57,385 nt of DNA from Nanobdellota archaeon (GCA_030611805.1 JAUWPB010000003.1:1-57385), one strand, 5' to 3'. Shown: positions 44,321-47,850, numbered from the stretch's first letter. Notes: generated from the sequence alone by a model not told the origin. Program-made: numbers and translations.

Positions 44321-45889
44321 ATGAGGTATAACATTCTTTTTGGGGGTGAAGCAGGTCAAGGTCCAAATATTCTTACACATATCTTGGGGGAAGCACTTGT
44401 GAATCAGGGTTATTATGTTTTTTATGCTCGGGATTACCAGTCATTGATAAGAAGAGGGCATAATTTTAATGTTTTAACTTTTTCAGATAAACCTATAAAC
44501 AGTAATGATGGCCAGATAGATATTTTAGTTGCACTTGATGAAAACACTAAAAAGATTCATAAAAAAGATTTAATAAAAAAAGGGATAATTTTAGATGGTA
44601 AACATGAGAACATGTATTCTGCCGGAAGATTATTTAAGATTCTTGGATTAGATTTTAAAATACTTGAGAATAAATTTAAAACACTTAAGCGGAGATTTGA
44701 GGAAAATATGAAAGAGGCAAAAGAAGGATATGCAAACGCAGAAAAGAAATTTGATTTGTCGCCAACTTCAAAGAACCAAAATTATTTTGCAAACGGAAGC
44801 CAGGCAGTTGCCCAGGGGGCAATAAAGTCCGGACTTGATTTTTATTATGCTTACCCCATGACTCCTGCCACCCCTGTTTTTATTGAGCTGGCAAAACAGC
44901 AAACCAAAAATAAATTTTACACTTTTGAATTAGAAAACGAGGTCGCTGTAATCAATGCTGCTGTTGGCAGTTCTATTACCGGAGCAAAAACAATGGTTGG
45001 GACTTCAGGCGGAGGATTTGATCTTATGACAGAAACATTCAGTTTAATAGGCATCGCAAATATCCCAATGGTAATCTACTTGGCACAAAGACACGGACCT
45101 GCAACAGGGGCAGCAACTTACACTGGTCAGGAAGACCTGAACACAGCAAGACACTCGGGACATGGCGAATTTCCAAAACTTGTTGTAGCAGGAGGCGACC
45201 CAACAGAACTAGAAGAATTGACAAGTCAGGCATTTTATTTTTCACAAAAATACAAAATACCTTCAATAATATTAAGTGACAAACATTTAGCTGAAAGTGC
45301 ATACACCTCAACAACTAAGGCCAAAATAACACCTTCACTAAAATCAACTAAATTAGCAAAATATAATAGCAAGGATACAGACAAAAATCAAAGTGCTACA
45401 TCAAGAGCAGACATGATAAAAGCAAATGTGGAAAAGAGGTTGCAAAAAACTATTGAAATAATAAAAGAAGCAAAGAAATTTAATATGTACAAAGTTTACG
45501 GCAACAAAAATTCAAACAATGTAATTGTAAGTTGGGGCTCTCCGAAAGGGGCGATTCTTGATGCAATGAAGGGAATCACACCTTGCTCATCAAAGATGAG
45601 CGATGATTTAAAAAAATCATCTAAAGGGGCAATTCTTGATGCTACAAAAGATTTAGATTGTAAGTTTGTCCAAATACTTTACATTGAACCTTTCCCAACA
45701 GAAATAAAAAAAGAACTAAAAGGAAAAAACTTAATCTTAATTGAGAATAATGCAACAGCACAATTAGGAAGTTTGATTGCTGAGAAAACCGGAATTTTTA
45801 TTGAGAATAAAAATAAAATTTTAAGATATGACGGAAGACCGTTTTTATGTGATGAGTTGAAAAAAGAAATTGTCAGGAGGTTGGGATGA
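44321..45889 (+). CDS. 2-oxoacid:ferredoxin oxidoreductase, fused gamma-alpha subunit
   Basis: Gamma-like GGEAGQGPNILTHILG at the N-terminus, then alpha-like GSQAVAQGAIKSGLDFYYAYPMTPATP. Confidence 0.9.
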   Translation: MRYNILFGGEAGQGPNILTHILGEALVNQGYYVFYARDYQSLIRRGHNFNVLTFSDKPINSNDGQIDILVALDENTKKIHKKDLIKKGIILDGKHENMYSAGRLFKILGLDFKILENKFKTLKRRFEENMKEAKEGYANAEKKFDLSPTSKNQNYFANGSQAVAQGAIKSGLDFYYAYPMTPATPVFIELAKQQTKNKFYTFELENEVAVINAAVGSSITGAKTMVGTSGGGFDLMTETFSLIGIANIPMVIYLAQRHGPATGAATYTGQEDLNTARHSGHGEFPKLVVAGGDPTELEELTSQAFYFSQKYKIPSIILSDKHLAESAYTSTTKAKITPSLKSTKLAKYNSKDTDKNQSATSRADMIKANVEKRLQKTIEIIKEAKKFNMYKVYGNKNSNNVIVSWGSPKGAILDAMKGITPCSSKMSDDLKKSSKGAILDATKDLDCKFVQILYIEPFPTEIKKELKGKNLILIENNATAQLGSLIAEKTGIFIENKNKILRYDGRPFLCDELKKEIVRRLG

Positions 45890-46317
45890 AAATAAGAAAA
45901 GCTACAAAGAAAGATATGGAGAAATTACTTGAAATTGGAAAATCAATAAAAGAATTTAAAGTTGATAAAAAAGAAAATGTTTTTTGGTCAAAGAAACAAT
46001 TATTAAATTGGGTTAAATCAAAAAAAGATATTATTTTAATTGCTGCAGAAAATAAACAAATTGTTGGATTTATTATGTTTGCTCACCATGTGCCTACTGG
46101 AAAAGTTATTCTTGAAAATGTGTGGGTTAACCAAGGATTAAGAAGGAAAAATATTGCTGGAAAATTAATTAAAAAGGGTTTATCTCAATTAAAGAAAAAA
46201 GGAGCAGTTTATTTATGTGCTTCGGCAAAGATAAATAACTTCGCTTCAATTAAATTTTTAGAAAAGAATAAATTTATGAGAGGGTTTGATTTTTCATGGT
46301 TACACCGGAAAATATAA
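45886..46317 (+). CDS. GNAT-family N-acetyltransferase (inside the OFOR operon)
   Basis: VWVNQGLRRKNIAGKLIKKGLSQLKKKG motif A. ATGA overlap with the alpha subunit; AGGAGG SD. Confidence 0.78.
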   Translation: MKIRKATKKDMEKLLEIGKSIKEFKVDKKENVFWSKKQLLNWVKSKKDIILIAAENKQIVGFIMFAHHVPTGKVILENVWVNQGLRRKNIAGKLIKKGLSQLKKKGAVYLCASAKINNFASIKFLEKNKFMRGFDFSWLHRKI

Positions 46318-46318
46318 A

Positions 46319-47071
46319 ATGGCAAAGAAAAAACAAATACAAACAAATGAATTTTTTGATATTAATAAATTTCCTGCGTCAGAGGGAATGCTGGTCTTTG
46401 GAATATCTATGAATCTAATTAGCAATTCTCAGAATGCAACAAGATGTTTTAATTATGTTAAAGAATTAGTAAAAAAAATGGAATACCCTTATATTGGTCT
46501 GACCTTTTTATATTCAGATAATCTTTACCTTTATCAAAAAGCAAATGCTGCAGAATTAAATAAAAAACACCAAAAATTAATTCTTGATCATAAAAACGGT
46601 TTTAAAAAAATACTTGATAAAAATAAGTGGTACATAAGAGATTCCTTTAGTTTTATTTCATGGAATCAGGCAATTCTTGAATCAAAGAATTTTACAAATT
46701 ATCTTGGACAGATAAAAAAATTATATGCAAAAGATTCACAATTTCAAAAATATGTTAAAGAAGATATAAAAAATATGAATAGAAAAATTACAAAACTGAA
46801 TATTTTATTCATCTTAGAAGAATTACTGATTTTTTATCTTGTATCTAAAGGAGAAATTAAATTTTCAAACAAATTTCTCAATGGTAAAGAGAAATGGGTT
46901 TTATGGTGTTATCCTGGCCCCCCTTTAAAATCAGAAATTTACTTATTCAAAAAAAATATTTTTCAACTCAAAAATACTAAAAATGTATATGAAAATTGTT
47001 ATTATGATTTGAAGGCAAAGAAACTGTATGATTATAACAAAGTAAACTTAAGCTCCATAAAACTAAAATGA
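46319..47071 (+). CDS. cyclodipeptide synthase (CDPS)-like protein, XYP-type motifs
   Basis: MLVFGISMNLISNS vs AlbC/YvmC (V/I)GIS..N; FILEEL vs Y..(A)E; LWCYPG vs CYH/AYH; middle helix pattern Y..L...Y..D..F..YV.ED. ATGA overlap with the beta subunit. Confidence 0.5.
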   Translation: MAKKKQIQTNEFFDINKFPASEGMLVFGISMNLISNSQNATRCFNYVKELVKKMEYPYIGLTFLYSDNLYLYQKANAAELNKKHQKLILDHKNGFKKILDKNKWYIRDSFSFISWNQAILESKNFTNYLGQIKKLYAKDSQFQKYVKEDIKNMNRKITKLNILFILEELLIFYLVSKGEIKFSNKFLNGKEKWVLWCYPGPPLKSEIYLFKKNIFQLKNTKNVYENCYYDLKAKKLYDYNKVNLSSIKLK

Positions 47072-47850
47072 CAAACTTATCAACTTCTGCTAAAATAACA
47101 TGGTGTCCTAAATGTTATAATTTCCAGATACTTGAAGGTGTGAAAAAAGTTCTTGAAAGAAAAATTAAATCAGAAAAAGACAGGCAAAAATATGCAATTG
47201 TTTCTGGAATTGGTTGTCATGCAAAGATTTTTGATTATCTGAATTTAAATGGAATTAATACTTTGCATGGAAGAGTTTTGCCAATGTGTCTTGGAATGAA
47301 AATCGCGAGACCTGACCTGACAGTTATTGGTTTCTCCGGGGATGGAGATGCTTATGCAGAAGGCATGGAACATTTAATTCACACTGCAAGATATAATTCT
47401 AATTTCAAATACATTGTTCACAATAATCAGGTTTTTGCTTTAACAGTAGGACAGCCAACTCCAACAACTGAAATCGGATTTAAAGGCAAGACAATTCCTC
47501 AGGGAGTTAAACTCCCTCCGCTCAATCCAATAAAATTAATGCTTGCTTCTGGAGCAACTTTTGTTGCGAGAGTTTTTGCAGATTCTAAGCAAGTTGAGTA
47601 TGTTTTAAAACAGGCATTAAAACACAAAGGATTTGCGTTTATTGAAGTTCTACAACCCTGTATTATTTTCCACCCTGATGCAGGTTACAAAGAAAAAACT
47701 TATTCATTAGAAAAAACAAAACATGACAAATCCAATTTTAGACAGGCATGGAAAAAAGCAGAAGAGTTTGATTATAACACAATAAAAAAAATTCCTGTAG
47801 GAATTTTTTATCAAACTAAAAAACCTGTTTTTGAAGAAGTTGTTAAGTAG
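47068..47850 (+). CDS. 2-oxoacid:ferredoxin oxidoreductase, beta (TPP-binding) subunit
   Basis: TWCPKC, GIGCHAK, GFSGDGDAYAEGMEHLIHTARYN, NNQVFALTVGQ. Confidence 0.92.
   Translation: MTNLSTSAKITWCPKCYNFQILEGVKKVLERKIKSEKDRQKYAIVSGIGCHAKIFDYLNLNGINTLHGRVLPMCLGMKIARPDLTVIGFSGDGDAYAEGMEHLIHTARYNSNFKYIVHNNQVFALTVGQPTPTTEIGFKGKTIPQGVKLPPLNPIKLMLASGATFVARVFADSKQVEYVLKQALKHKGFAFIEVLQPCIIFHPDAGYKEKTYSLEKTKHDKSNFRQAWKKAEEFDYNTIKKIPVGIFYQTKKPVFEEVVK

What the first reader, a model, noticed from the sequence alone, without database searches (positions are those of the whole stretch)
45886..47071. Cyclodipeptide-synthase-like gene plus GNAT, translationally coupled inside a 2-oxoacid:ferredoxin oxidoreductase operon
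The OFOR gamma-alpha gene (44321..45889) and beta gene (47068..47850) are normally adjacent. Here two genes sit between them with tight coupling: an ATGA overlap at 45886, a 1-nt gap at 46318, and an ATGA overlap at 47068. The second gene (250 aa from the ATG at 46319) aligns by eye to tRNA-dependent cyclodipeptide synthases (AlbC, YvmC as I remember them). MLVFGISMNLISNS matches the catalytic-Ser block (L/V)(I/V)GIS..N. SWNQAILESKNFTNYLGQIKKLYAKDSQFQKYVKEDIK matches F.DF...K.Y..L...V...F.....F...C.DM. FILEELLIF matches YV(L/I)AE(A/L)P(L/F)F with the conserved Glu. WVLWCYPGPP matches the Y-H/Y-P block. The Leu at the N40-equivalent position plus Y-P would place it in the XYP subfamily. Two caveats apply: the Tyr178-equivalent is Phe, and the Glu-to-Tyr spacing is 30 rather than 20 residues. 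A CDPS with an adjacent acetyltransferase, co-translated with a central redox enzyme in a reduced archaeal genome, would be an unusual secondary-metabolite or signalling module.
Basis: partly seen in the sequence, partly recalled or inferred. Interest (0 to 1): 0.75.

Follow-up and report, generated by a model that had tools for sequence, protein, structure and literature searches.

The report
Divergent cyclodipeptide-synthase-like gene with GNAT partner
A 250-residue "hypothetical" protein in this DPANN-type archaeal fragment belongs to a previously undescribed, highly conserved branch of the tRNA-dependent cyclodipeptide synthase family; it travels with a small acetyltransferase, and its position between the two oxidoreductase genes is incidental because that junction collects assorted small genes in related genomes.

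Summary
The gene layout is as described: OFOR alpha (44321-45889), GNAT (45886-46317), a 250-aa ORF "X" (46319-47071) and OFOR beta (47068-47850), with ATGA overlaps and a 1-nt gap. A separately assembled contig reproduces both junctions.

X has no Pfam or NCBIfam hit, but three lines of evidence place it in the cyclodipeptide synthase (CDPS) superfamily, nearest the XYP subfamily:
- The AlphaFold model (pLDDT 92.9) gives CDPS structures as its top 41 Foldseek hits.
- A family profile hits Rickettsiella CDPS 5MLP by sequence (E 1.3e-4).
- hhalign against an XYP profile gives 95-96.5% probability.

X belongs to a conserved family (about 177 clusters at 50% identity). All 58 species-genome loci come from MAGs labelled DPANN archaea or CPR bacteria, apart from three probable mislabels. 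In the window's clade, X almost always sits beside a dedicated GNAT or a SET-domain methyltransferase, or is fused to the SET domain.

The OFOR embedding is not a functional link. In 45 of 66 related OFOR loci the alpha-beta junction holds other, varied small genes. The closest X relatives carry GNAT-X in non-OFOR contexts.

The verdict is a new divergent CDPS clade. The product is unknown.

The parts
44321..45889 (+). 2-oxoacid:ferredoxin oxidoreductase alpha subunit (gamma-alpha fusion, 522 aa). It is the upstream flank of the insertion. It contains an internal near-repeat KGAILDA(M/T)K at 45545 and 45623.
   Evidence: Pfam POR 3.5e-14 and POR_N 2.9e-41; NCBIfam TIGR03710 8.6e-115; repeat located.
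45886..46317 (+). Small GNAT acetyltransferase (143 aa). It is the dedicated partner of X. Its start overlaps the alpha stop (ATGA), and a GGAGG lies at 45876-45880.
   Evidence: Pfam Acetyltransf_1 2.9e-11. An orthologous GNAT subfamily is adjacent to X in about 12 other loci (HMM E 1e-47 to 1e-68), plus L064-L066. Nearest PDB sequences are generic small-amine or N-terminal acetyltransferases.
46319..47071 (+). X: a 250-aa divergent cyclodipeptide-synthase-like protein (XYP-like). Predicted active-site codons are Ser30 46406-46408, Asp67 46517-46519, Phe164 46808-46810, Glu167-Glu168 46817-46822 and Tyr198-Pro199-Gly200 46910-46918. A family-specific insertion Lys177-Gly189 lies at 46847-46885.
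   Evidence: AF2 pLDDT 92.9. The top 41 Foldseek PDB hits are all CDPS. Profile A2 vs 5MLP gives E 1.3e-4. hhalign vs the XYP profile gives Prob 94.8/96.5. Residue mapping is, conservation, coordinates.
47068..47850 (+). 2-oxoacid:ferredoxin oxidoreductase beta subunit (260 aa). It is the downstream flank, and its start overlaps the X stop (ATGA).
   Evidence: Pfam TPP_enzyme_C 1.1e-29 and PFO_beta_C 6.2e-11; NCBIfam NF008820 1.7e-90.

Best explanation
X (46319-47071) is a member of a previously undescribed, strongly conserved clade of the cyclodipeptide synthase superfamily, most closely related to the XYP subfamily. It is found in DPANN archaea and CPR/Patescibacteria.

Most likely mechanism (inferred by homology): X binds the acceptor end of an aminoacyl-tRNA and transfers the aminoacyl group to Ser30, which is probably polarised by Asp67 as in ParcuCDPS. 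It then uses Glu168 to couple a second aminoacyl-tRNA, giving a dipeptidyl-enzyme. It releases a cyclodipeptide with the help of Tyr198. Phe164 takes the place of the usual Tyr178.

The co-translated GNAT, which in other genomes is replaced by an adjacent or fused SET-domain lysine-type methyltransferase, most likely caps an amine on the product or on a substrate. One possibility is a Lys-type side chain held in the P2 pocket, which carries a family-specific conserved Asp149.

The location between OFOR alpha and beta reflects insertion of a mobile two-gene cassette into a junction that accumulates varied small genes in this lineage. It does not indicate a functional link to OFOR.

Shown: the fold, the homology, the conservation of catalytic positions, the partner association and the incidental nature of the OFOR context. 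Inferred: the chemistry, the substrates and the role of the GNAT.
For: - **Fold:** the AF2 model has pLDDT 92.9 and pTM 0.89. Foldseek vs PDB returns CDPS structures for ranks 1-41 (6EZ3 E 5.9e-6, TM 0.53-0.63, prob 1.00). TyrRS and TrpRS appear only from rank 42, at E >= 0.02.
- **Sequence:** the divergent-family profile hits Rgry-CDPS 5MLP at E 1.3e-4 over nearly the full length, and Fdum-CDPS at 0.074. hhalign of 134 family sequences vs 120 XYP CDPSs gives Prob 94.8 (local) and 96.5 (global), E 4.9e-8 and 7.6e-10. Against NYH the values are Prob 72.8, E 3.2e-5. One family member reaches Pfam CDPS at 5.4e-4.
- **Specificity control:** an XYP HMM searched against 1,495 ORFs puts X-family proteins in 55 of the top 57 places.
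- **Catalytic mapping:** S37->S30 (129/134), E182->E168 (131/133), Y202->Y198 (131/133), H203->P199 (121/133), Y178->F164 (126 F, 4 Y), N40->variable. The XYP Asp on the strand after the Ser maps to D67.
- **Tolerance of Phe164:** Tyr-to-Phe at the Y178 position retains activity in ParcuCDPS and three other XYP enzymes. Asp58 forms a Ser/Asp dyad in ParcuCDPS (PMC7613923).
- **Weak weight of the Pfam miss:** many genuine XYP CDPSs also lack a Pfam PF16715 hit.
- **Partners:** a GNAT subfamily is adjacent in about 12 loci, and a SET subfamily is adjacent in 2 loci and fused in 3 proteins. In the tree, 12 of 13 members of the window's clade have a partner, and a SET-partnered member nests among the GNAT-partnered ones.
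- **OFOR context is incidental:**
Against: - There is no hit to Pfam PF16715 or to any NCBIfam model for the window protein.
- Identity to solved CDPSs is only 8-18%, with TM about 0.5-0.6 and RMSD 4.3-6 A.
- The alignment register around the catalytic Glu depends on the profile used. The NYH profile and plain HMMER pair Y173/K177, not F164/E168, with Y178/E182. I could not superpose coordinates.
- The canonical Tyr178 is Phe, and a 13-residue insertion sits next to the active site.
- The family is far more conserved than typical CDPSs (40-75% identity across archaea and bacteria). It has extra near-invariant residues (Q38, Y65, Y70, H91, W193, Y208, Y229) with no CDPS counterpart, which hints at a distinct, tightly constrained function.
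- My literature searches found no description of GNAT or SET enzymes as CDPS tailoring partners. A plain cyclodipeptide also has no free alpha-amine for them to modify.
- About three quarters of the loci have no partner gene nearby.
- One genome (L020) has X next to a canonical CDPS, so X is a paralogue with possibly different chemistry.
- There are no experimental data.
Confidence: 0.6

Rival explanations
1. X has the CDPS fold and uses aminoacyl-tRNA through a Ser30 acyl-enzyme, but its output is not a cyclodipeptide. It could transfer an aminoacyl or dipeptidyl group to another acceptor such as a protein lysine or N-terminus, a lipid or a polyamine. Alternatively it could release a linear N-capped dipeptide. 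The GNAT or SET partner would act on the same amine-bearing substrate.
For: - Conservation is unusually high, and extra invariant residues are absent from CDPSs.
- The partners belong to families that mostly act on protein lysines or N-termini or on small amines. The SET is nearest to KMT2-type lysine methyltransferases. The GNAT is nearest to polyamine, Naa30 and RimI-type enzymes.
- X-SET fusions occur in both orders.
- A 13-residue insertion lies beside the active site.
- X coexists with a canonical CDPS in L020.
Against: Tyr198-Pro199, the residues tied to cyclisation and to XYP pocket architecture, are nearly invariant. The P1 pocket positions resemble those of Rgry-CDPS, including the Trp. 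No candidate acceptor gene recurs in the neighbourhood.
Confidence: 0.25
2. The insertion into the OFOR operon is functional. OFOR makes acyl-CoA, which the GNAT consumes, so the cassette is metabolically coupled to OFOR through co-translation.
For: All four genes are tightly coupled by start/stop overlaps. Three different kinds of GNAT occur among the cargo genes at this junction in related genomes.
Against: GNAT-X occurs in at least 12 other loci with no OFOR nearby, including the closest relative. Most junction cargo is unrelated to acyl-CoA: a membrane protein, a YdeN-type hydrolase, a HIT protein, a methyltransferase and a Bro-N protein. In 21 of 66 loci alpha and beta are directly adjacent.
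Confidence: 0.07
3. GNAT-X is a toxin-antitoxin or defence pair. The GNAT would acetylate aminoacyl-tRNA, as TacT and AtaT do, and X would remove or divert the blocked aminoacyl group.
For: Both proteins could plausibly act on aminoacyl-tRNA. The two genes form an overlapping pair that moves between genomic contexts.
Against: X and the GNAT hit no PADLOC family, and X hits no PHROG family; the GNAT matches only generic PHROG acetyltransferase families. No TacT, AtaT or KacT structure appears among the top 60 PDB matches to the GNAT. X usually occurs without the GNAT, and in some genomes the GNAT is replaced by a SET methyltransferase. The family is absent from viral contigs.
Confidence: 0.03
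4. X is an inactive or ATP-dependent class Ic aaRS paralogue, not a CDPS-type enzyme.
For: TyrRS and TrpRS catalytic domains appear in the Foldseek list.
Against: The aaRS hits are about 4 orders of magnitude weaker than the CDPS hits. X has no HIGH-like or KMSKS-like motif. The CDPS catalytic Ser, Glu and Tyr positions are nearly invariant.
Confidence: 0.03

Closest known systems
XYP-subfamily cyclodipeptide synthases (Rgry-CDPS 5MLP, Cglo-CDPS 6Y4B, Nbra-CDPS 5MLQ, ParcuCDPS 7QB8)
   Same: The fold is the same Rossmann-type fold with a 1:1 order of secondary-structure elements. The shared motifs are G-I-S(M) with the catalytic Ser, [ST]-D-x-L on the next strand (the Asp of the Ser/Asp dyad in ParcuCDPS), aromatic-x-L-E-E with the catalytic Glu, and Y-P-G. 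The N40 position is non-conserved. The P1 pocket positions are similar to those of Rgry-CDPS, including Trp115/W120.
   Different: - Phe replaces the Tyr178-equivalent.
- A 13-residue insertion lies between the Glu and the Tyr.
- The family has extra invariant residues (Q38, Y65, Y70, H91, W193, Y208, Y229) and a conserved Asp149 at a P2 position.
- The profile-profile score to XYP (E about 1e-8) is much weaker than XYP to NYH (E 2e-17), so this is a more remote third clade.
- Conservation within the family is much higher.
- Its partners are GNAT or SET enzymes, not oxidases, P450s or class I methyltransferases.
- It is restricted to DPANN and CPR genomes.
NYH-subfamily CDPSs (AlbC 3OQV/4Q24, YvmC 3OQH, Rv2275 2X9Q)
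   Same: Same fold, and these structures are among the top Foldseek hits. The helix-alpha4 to 'F..D..F' block is collinear in HMM and hhalign alignments. The Ser, Glu and Tyr positions are conserved.
   Different: Positions 40 and 203 are not Asn and His. hhalign probability is only 73%, and the register at the Glu helix is ambiguous.
Class Ic aminoacyl-tRNA synthetase catalytic domains (TyrRS, TrpRS)
   Same: Related Rossmann fold. These are the weaker Foldseek hits, at E 0.02-0.05.
   Different: X has no HIGH or KMSKS motif and no anticodon-binding domain. The CDPS-type Ser nucleophile is present.
CDPS biosynthetic gene pairs with tailoring enzymes
   Same: A small synthase gene is tightly linked, and sometimes fused, to a modifying enzyme.
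   Different: The partners here are a GNAT acetyltransferase or a SET-domain methyltransferase. My literature searches found no description of either as a CDPS partner.

Membership tests
Cyclodipeptide synthase (CDPS) superfamily | Class-Ic-aaRS-like Rossmann fold | tested here: met
   AF2 pLDDT 92.9. Foldseek PDB ranks 1-41 are all CDPS, with prob 1.00, E down to 5.9e-6 and TM 0.45-0.63.
Cyclodipeptide synthase (CDPS) superfamily | Match to the curated family model Pfam PF16715 above its gathering score | tested here: not met
   The window protein has no hit. One of 46 divergent relatives reaches E 5.4e-4. Caveat: many bona fide XYP CDPSs, including Rgry and Cglo, also have no PF16715 hit on record.
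Cyclodipeptide synthase (CDPS) superfamily | Significant sequence or profile similarity to characterised CDPSs | tested here: met
   Profile A2 vs 5MLP gives E 1.3e-4. hhalign vs the XYP profile gives Prob 94.8/96.5, E 4.9e-8 and 7.6e-10. In the specificity control, 55 of the top 57 hits among 1,495 ORFs are family members.
Cyclodipeptide synthase (CDPS) superfamily | Catalytic Ser (AlbC S37) at the end of the first strand | tested here: met
   Ser30 in G-I-S, present in 129 of 134 family sequences. It aligns to the catalytic Ser in every alignment.
Cyclodipeptide synthase (CDPS) superfamily | Catalytic Glu (AlbC E182) | tested here: met
   Glu168, present in 131 of 133 sequences, aligns to Rgry E193 and AlbC E182 with the XYP profile. 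The NYH profile and HMMER instead place the variable K177 there. Conservation and the shared L-E-E motif favour E168.
Cyclodipeptide synthase (CDPS) superfamily | Tyr at the AlbC Y178 position | tested here: not met
   The position is Phe164 (126 F, 4 Y of 133). Y-to-F mutants of XYP CDPSs keep activity (PMC7613923), so this does not exclude the chemistry.
Cyclodipeptide synthase (CDPS) superfamily | Tyr at the AlbC Y202 position (cyclisation) | tested here: met
   Tyr198, present in 131 of 133 sequences and aligned in all alignments.
Cyclodipeptide synthase (CDPS) superfamily | Ser, Glu and Tyr residues lining one pocket in three dimensions | not testable with these tools
   Model coordinates are not exposed, and Foldseek output gives no residue pairs.
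Cyclodipeptide synthase (CDPS) superfamily | aa-tRNA-dependent formation of a cyclodipeptide | not testable with these tools
   This needs expression with LC-MS and acyl-enzyme trapping.
XYP subfamily of CDPS | Non-conserved residue at position 40, with Tyr202 and Pro203 | tested here: met
   Position 33 is Leu in the window and R/K/Q across the family. Tyr198-Pro199 is present, with Pro in 121 of 133 sequences.
XYP subfamily of CDPS | Closeness to XYP members comparable to that among known CDPSs | tested here: not met
   Family vs XYP gives E about 5e-8, whereas XYP vs NYH gives E 2e-17. The family lies outside both known subfamilies, nearest to XYP.
GNAT acetyltransferase (gene 45886-46317) | Match to Pfam Acetyltransf_1 above the gathering score | tested here: met
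   44.1 bits against a cutoff of 20.7, E 2.9e-11.
GNAT acetyltransferase (gene 45886-46317) | Canonical acetyl-CoA motif R/Q-x-x-G-x-G/A | tested here: inconclusive
   The window has R-R-K-N-I-A-G, and the Gly positions vary among the orthologues. The invariant Arg is present.
GNAT-type toxin-antitoxin pair (TacT/AtaT-like) | GNAT related to aa-tRNA-acetylating toxins, paired with a small RHH antitoxin | tested here: not met
   No such PDB match appears in the top 60. The partner is a 250-aa CDPS-like protein. There is no PADLOC hit.
Two-subunit 2-oxoacid:ferredoxin oxidoreductase (flanking genes) | Alpha with POR gamma-like and POR_N domains; beta with a TPP-binding domain and PFO_beta_C | tested here: met

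The most novel reading that the evidence does not exclude
X is not a cyclodipeptide synthase in function. It would be the founding member of a new kind of tRNA-dependent aminoacyl transferase in ultra-small symbionts (DPANN and CPR). It would install an amino acid on an amine or lysine of a cellular target, or build an N-capped aminoacyl or dipeptidyl compound. The interchangeable GNAT and SET partners would acetylate or methylate the same amine. This would be a tRNA-dependent modification system built on the CDPS fold.
Probability: 0.15. Interest if true: 0.85.

Novelty: new variant of a known kind. Interest (0 to 1): 0.62.

Why it matters
CDPSs are currently described as two subfamilies, NYH and XYP (2026 review PMC12945691). 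This family would be a third, more remote clade. It has about 177 clusters at 50% identity and is invisible to Pfam and NCBIfam. Every source name recorded for its members reads "hypothetical protein". It is confined to the two radiations of ultra-small, host-dependent prokaryotes.

These organisms have minimal biosynthetic capacity. A conserved enzyme that diverts charged tRNAs into a small molecule, or into a modification, is therefore a plausible candidate for host-symbiont signalling or interaction. It is directly testable by expressing 45886-47071.

The GNAT/SET partner swap gives a concrete handle on the chemistry, pointing to an amine-bearing product.

The finding also shows that Pfam PF16715 under-detects XYP-type CDPSs.

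Separately, the OFOR alpha-beta junction acting as a recurrent landing site for small genes is an unexplained feature of genome organisation in these archaea.

Tried and rejected
- **Direct family searches on X found nothing.** Pfam, NCBIfam, PADLOC and PHROGs gave no hit.
- **PDB sequence searches with X alone or the close-homologue profile A1 found nothing relevant**. The weak GlmS and YchF hits were noise.
- **hhalign of A1 against a 4-sequence NYH seed found nothing** (Prob 0.2%). It needed deeper profiles, and the XYP profile was decisive.
- **The Y173/K177 register was rejected.** It was suggested by the NYH hhalign and by HMMER. Position 177 is variable (K/Q/E/R/N), whereas F164, E167 and E168 are nearly invariant and match the XYP Y-x-L-E-E motif.
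- **No other conserved neighbour was found.** I looked for tRNA-related genes, transporters and classical CDPS tailoring enzymes. Only GNAT and SET recur.
- **No other genome has the OFOR-embedded arrangement** among 62 X loci and 80 OFOR loci.
- **The family is absent from viral contigs**.
- **Literature searches found no prior description** of a CDPS-like family in DPANN or CPR, or of GNAT or SET partners.
Full report
**Observation.**
- OFOR alpha (a gamma-alpha fusion) runs from 44321 to 45889. Its stop overlaps the start of a 143-aa GNAT (45886-46317) as ATGA, and a GGAGG lies just upstream.
- One base separates the GNAT stop from the ATG at 46319 of a 250-aa ORF, here called X (46319-47071).
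- The X stop overlaps the ATG of OFOR beta (47068-47850), again as ATGA.
- Pfam and NCBIfam confirm the OFOR subunits and the GNAT.
- A Logan contig from run SRR12623521 is 100% identical to window 45802-47190 and spans both junctions. An assembly chimera is therefore unlikely.

**What X is: the negative results first.** X has no hit in Pfam (including CDPS PF16715), NCBIfam, PADLOC or PHROGs. Neither X nor a profile of its close homologues hits any PDB sequence.

**A conserved family.** X is nevertheless a real, conserved gene.
- A word-indexed search returned 69 homologues at 41-75% identity. None carries a Pfam domain, and every source name recorded is "hypothetical protein".
- An exhaustive HMMER scan of 1.84 billion cluster representatives found 177 with E <= 1e-3.
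- A scan of one genome per GTDB species found 58 loci. All are in MAGs labelled as DPANN archaea (Pace-, Woese-, Nano-, Micrarchaeota) or CPR/Patescibacteria, apart from three probable mislabels.
- In a 134-sequence alignment the near-invariant positions are S30, Q38, Y65, L69, Y70, H91, F164, E167, E168, L195, Y198, P199, G200 and Y229.

**Structure.** An AlphaFold2 model built from 45 homologues is confident, with mean pLDDT 92.9 and pTM 0.89.
- In a Foldseek search of PDB, ranks 1-41 are all cyclodipeptide synthases. They include Shae 6EZ3, AlbC 3OQV/4Q24, SsBcmA 9J61, Fdum 5OCD, Rgry 5MLP, YvmC, BtCDPS, Rv2275, Nbra and ParcuCDPS.
- These hits have probability 1.00 for nearly all (0.99 for the last two), E down to 5.9e-6 and TM 0.45-0.63.
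- Class Ic TyrRS and TrpRS follow only from rank 42, at E >= 0.02.
- X has no HIGH-like or KMSKS-like motif.

**Sequence-level confirmation and the register problem.**
- A profile of divergent family members hits the XYP-type Rickettsiella grylli CDPS (5MLP) at E 1.3e-4 over almost the full length.
- hhalign of the deep family profile against 112 NYH CDPSs gives Prob 72.8% and E 3.2e-5, collinear over 150 columns.
- Those two alignments paired family Y173/K177 with AlbC Y178/E182. This conflicts with conservation, because position 177 is variable while F164, E167 and E168 are nearly invariant.
- XYP CDPSs share the motif Y-[FL]-L-E-E ... Y-P-[GQ] and [TA]-D-x-L on the strand after the Ser.
- I therefore built a 120-sequence XYP profile. 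hhalign against it gives Prob 94.8% (local) and 96.5% (global), with E 4.9e-8 and 7.6e-10.
- Mapping through Rgry to AlbC gives S37->S30, N40->L33 (R/K/Q in the family), Y128->F125, Y178->F164, E182->E168, Y202->Y198 and H203->P199.

**Controls.**
- The XYP and NYH profiles align at Prob 99%, E 2e-17. The family is therefore more remote from XYP than the two known subfamilies are from each other.
- An XYP HMM searched against 1,495 ORFs from all fetched loci puts X-family proteins in 55 of the top 57 places. The window's X scores E 8.7e-6, and the next unrelated ORF scores E 0.31.
- Many genuine XYP CDPSs, including Rgry and Cglo, also have no PF16715 hit on record. The Pfam miss therefore carries little weight.

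**Compatibility with CDPS chemistry.**
- The literature defines CDPSs by S37, Y178, E182 and Y202, and by the NYH or XYP signature (PMC11580168).
- The pocket positions are given in PMC5816076.
- The one deviation here, Phe at the Y178 position, is tolerated. ParcuCDPS Y167F and the equivalent mutants of three other XYP enzymes still make product.
- ParcuCDPS also uses an Asp on the neighbouring strand (D58) as a Ser/Asp dyad (PMC7613923). D67 matches this.
- The mapped P1 positions (V26, G/P28, L64, S/T66, W115, I171, F172, W196) are hydrophobic. They resemble those of Rgry-CDPS, which makes cFF and cFL.
- A family-specific Asp149 maps to a P2 position. This mapping is of low confidence.

**Genomic context of X.** Clustering of neighbours, Pfam scans and custom HMMs across 62 loci found only two recurrent partners.
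- The first is a specific small GNAT subfamily. It is adjacent in the window, L001, L002/3, L006-L008, L011, L021, L023, L044, L058 and L064-66. It occurs upstream or downstream, on the same or the opposite strand, in both archaea and CPR.
- The second is a specific SET-domain subfamily. It is adjacent in L009 and L012, and fused in P0124 and P0134 (C-terminal) and P0031/L010 (N-terminal).
- In a neighbour-joining tree, 12 of 13 members of the window's clade have a partner. The clade mixes archaea and bacteria, and a SET-partnered member nests among the GNAT-partnered ones. The two partners therefore look interchangeable.
- The GNAT resembles generic small-amine or N-terminal acetyltransferases.
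- The SET resembles KMT2-type lysine methyltransferases.
- Other clades, about three quarters of the loci, have no partner nearby.
- The family is absent from viral contigs.

**The OFOR context is incidental.**
- None of the other 61 X loci has OFOR next to X.
- The 75%-identical closest relative has GNAT-X with the same overlapping starts and stops, but its flanking genes are not OFOR.
- Conversely, I examined 80 metagenome loci whose OFOR beta is 66-82% identical to the window's. Of these, 66 show both the alpha C-terminus and the beta N-terminus.
- In 45 of those 66 loci the two genes are separated by 110-1,630 bp holding 1-3 small, mostly same-strand, tightly packed genes.
- The cargo families are varied: a ~121-aa membrane protein (13 loci), a PF06821 serine hydrolase (10), a HIT protein (10), two other GNAT types, a class I methyltransferase and a Bro-N protein. 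None contains X.
- The junction is thus a hotspot for gene accretion, and GNAT-X is one cargo among many.

**Interpretation.**
- Shown: X is a remote homologue of CDPSs with the CDPS fold. Its catalytic Ser, Glu and Tyr-Pro positions are conserved. It forms a distinct clade nearest to XYP. It is linked to GNAT or SET partners. Its OFOR embedding is lineage-specific and incidental.
- Inferred: X uses two aminoacyl-tRNAs by the ping-pong Ser-acyl-enzyme mechanism to make a cyclodipeptide, and the partner caps an amine (possibly a Lys-type side chain) on the product or on a substrate.
- The main rival is that the CDPS scaffold has been re-purposed as a tRNA-dependent transferase with a different acceptor or a linear, N-capped product. 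The unusual conservation, the extra invariant residues, the nature of the partners and the coexistence with a canonical CDPS in L020 all keep this open.
- The toxin-antitoxin, ATP-dependent aaRS-paralogue and OFOR-coupling readings are poorly supported.

**Novelty and score.** No paper in the searchable library describes a CDPS-like family in DPANN or CPR, or GNAT or SET partners. A 2026 review still lists two subfamilies. I rate this a new variant of a known kind: a third, remote CDPS clade with new partners and a restricted, cross-domain distribution. Interest is 0.62. It would surprise and interest CDPS and DPANN/CPR specialists and is directly testable, but the chemistry is unproven and the eye-catching OFOR embedding turns out to be incidental.

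Noticed in passing
Window 45886-47071, compared with loci L068-L147 (OFOR alpha-beta junctions): The junction between the OFOR alpha and beta genes is a recurrent insertion site in this lineage. In 45 of 66 related loci it holds 1-3 small, mostly same-strand, tightly packed genes of varied families: a ~121-aa membrane protein, a PF06821 serine hydrolase, a HIT protein, two other GNAT types, a class I methyltransferase, a Bro-N protein and small TM proteins. In the other 21 loci alpha and beta are directly adjacent. The reason for the hotspot is unknown.
   Followed up: partly
L020: 5983-6729 (+) and 7589-8290 (-): A Woesearchaeota MAG encodes X and a canonical, Pfam-positive CDPS (PF16715, 6.3e-16). 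They are about 860 bp apart, separated only by an M10-like metallopeptidase gene, and a class I methyltransferase lies upstream. Only one of 62 loci shows this arrangement.
   Followed up: partly
L009 5526-5993, L012 6731-7189, L010 5527-6765 (= P0031), P0124, P0134: A dedicated SET-domain subfamily replaces the GNAT as the neighbour of X, or is fused to X at either end. In L009 and L010 the canonical NHSC motif of the SET domain is degenerate (N-D-Y-G). All these SET domains share a C-terminal K-Y-x-x-Y-I-S-D-Y-L motif.
   Followed up: partly
Proteins P0340-P0459: Many bona fide XYP-subfamily CDPSs have no precomputed Pfam PF16715 hit. They include the structurally characterised Rickettsiella and Glomeribacter enzymes. 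The Pfam model therefore under-detects this subfamily.
   Followed up: no
Window 45545-45565 and 45623-45643 (inside OFOR alpha): There is an internal near-duplication in the OFOR alpha C-terminal region: KGAILDAMKG and then, 26 residues later, KGAILDATKD. The sequence between them is a low-complexity Ser/Lys-rich linker. It may be a small tandem duplication or an insertion.
   Followed up: no
L019, L026, L047 (record titles): Three X-bearing MAGs are labelled Methanosarcinales or Rhodospirillales, unlike all the others, which are DPANN or CPR. Binning or labelling errors are likely. I did not check this.
   Followed up: no
P0074 (525 aa) and P0171 (670 aa, 11 matched stretches): Two further unusual architectures occur in the family. 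One has a ~280-residue N-terminal extension with a weak winged-helix hit. The other appears to repeat the N-terminal segment of X many times. I did not analyse either.
   Followed up: no
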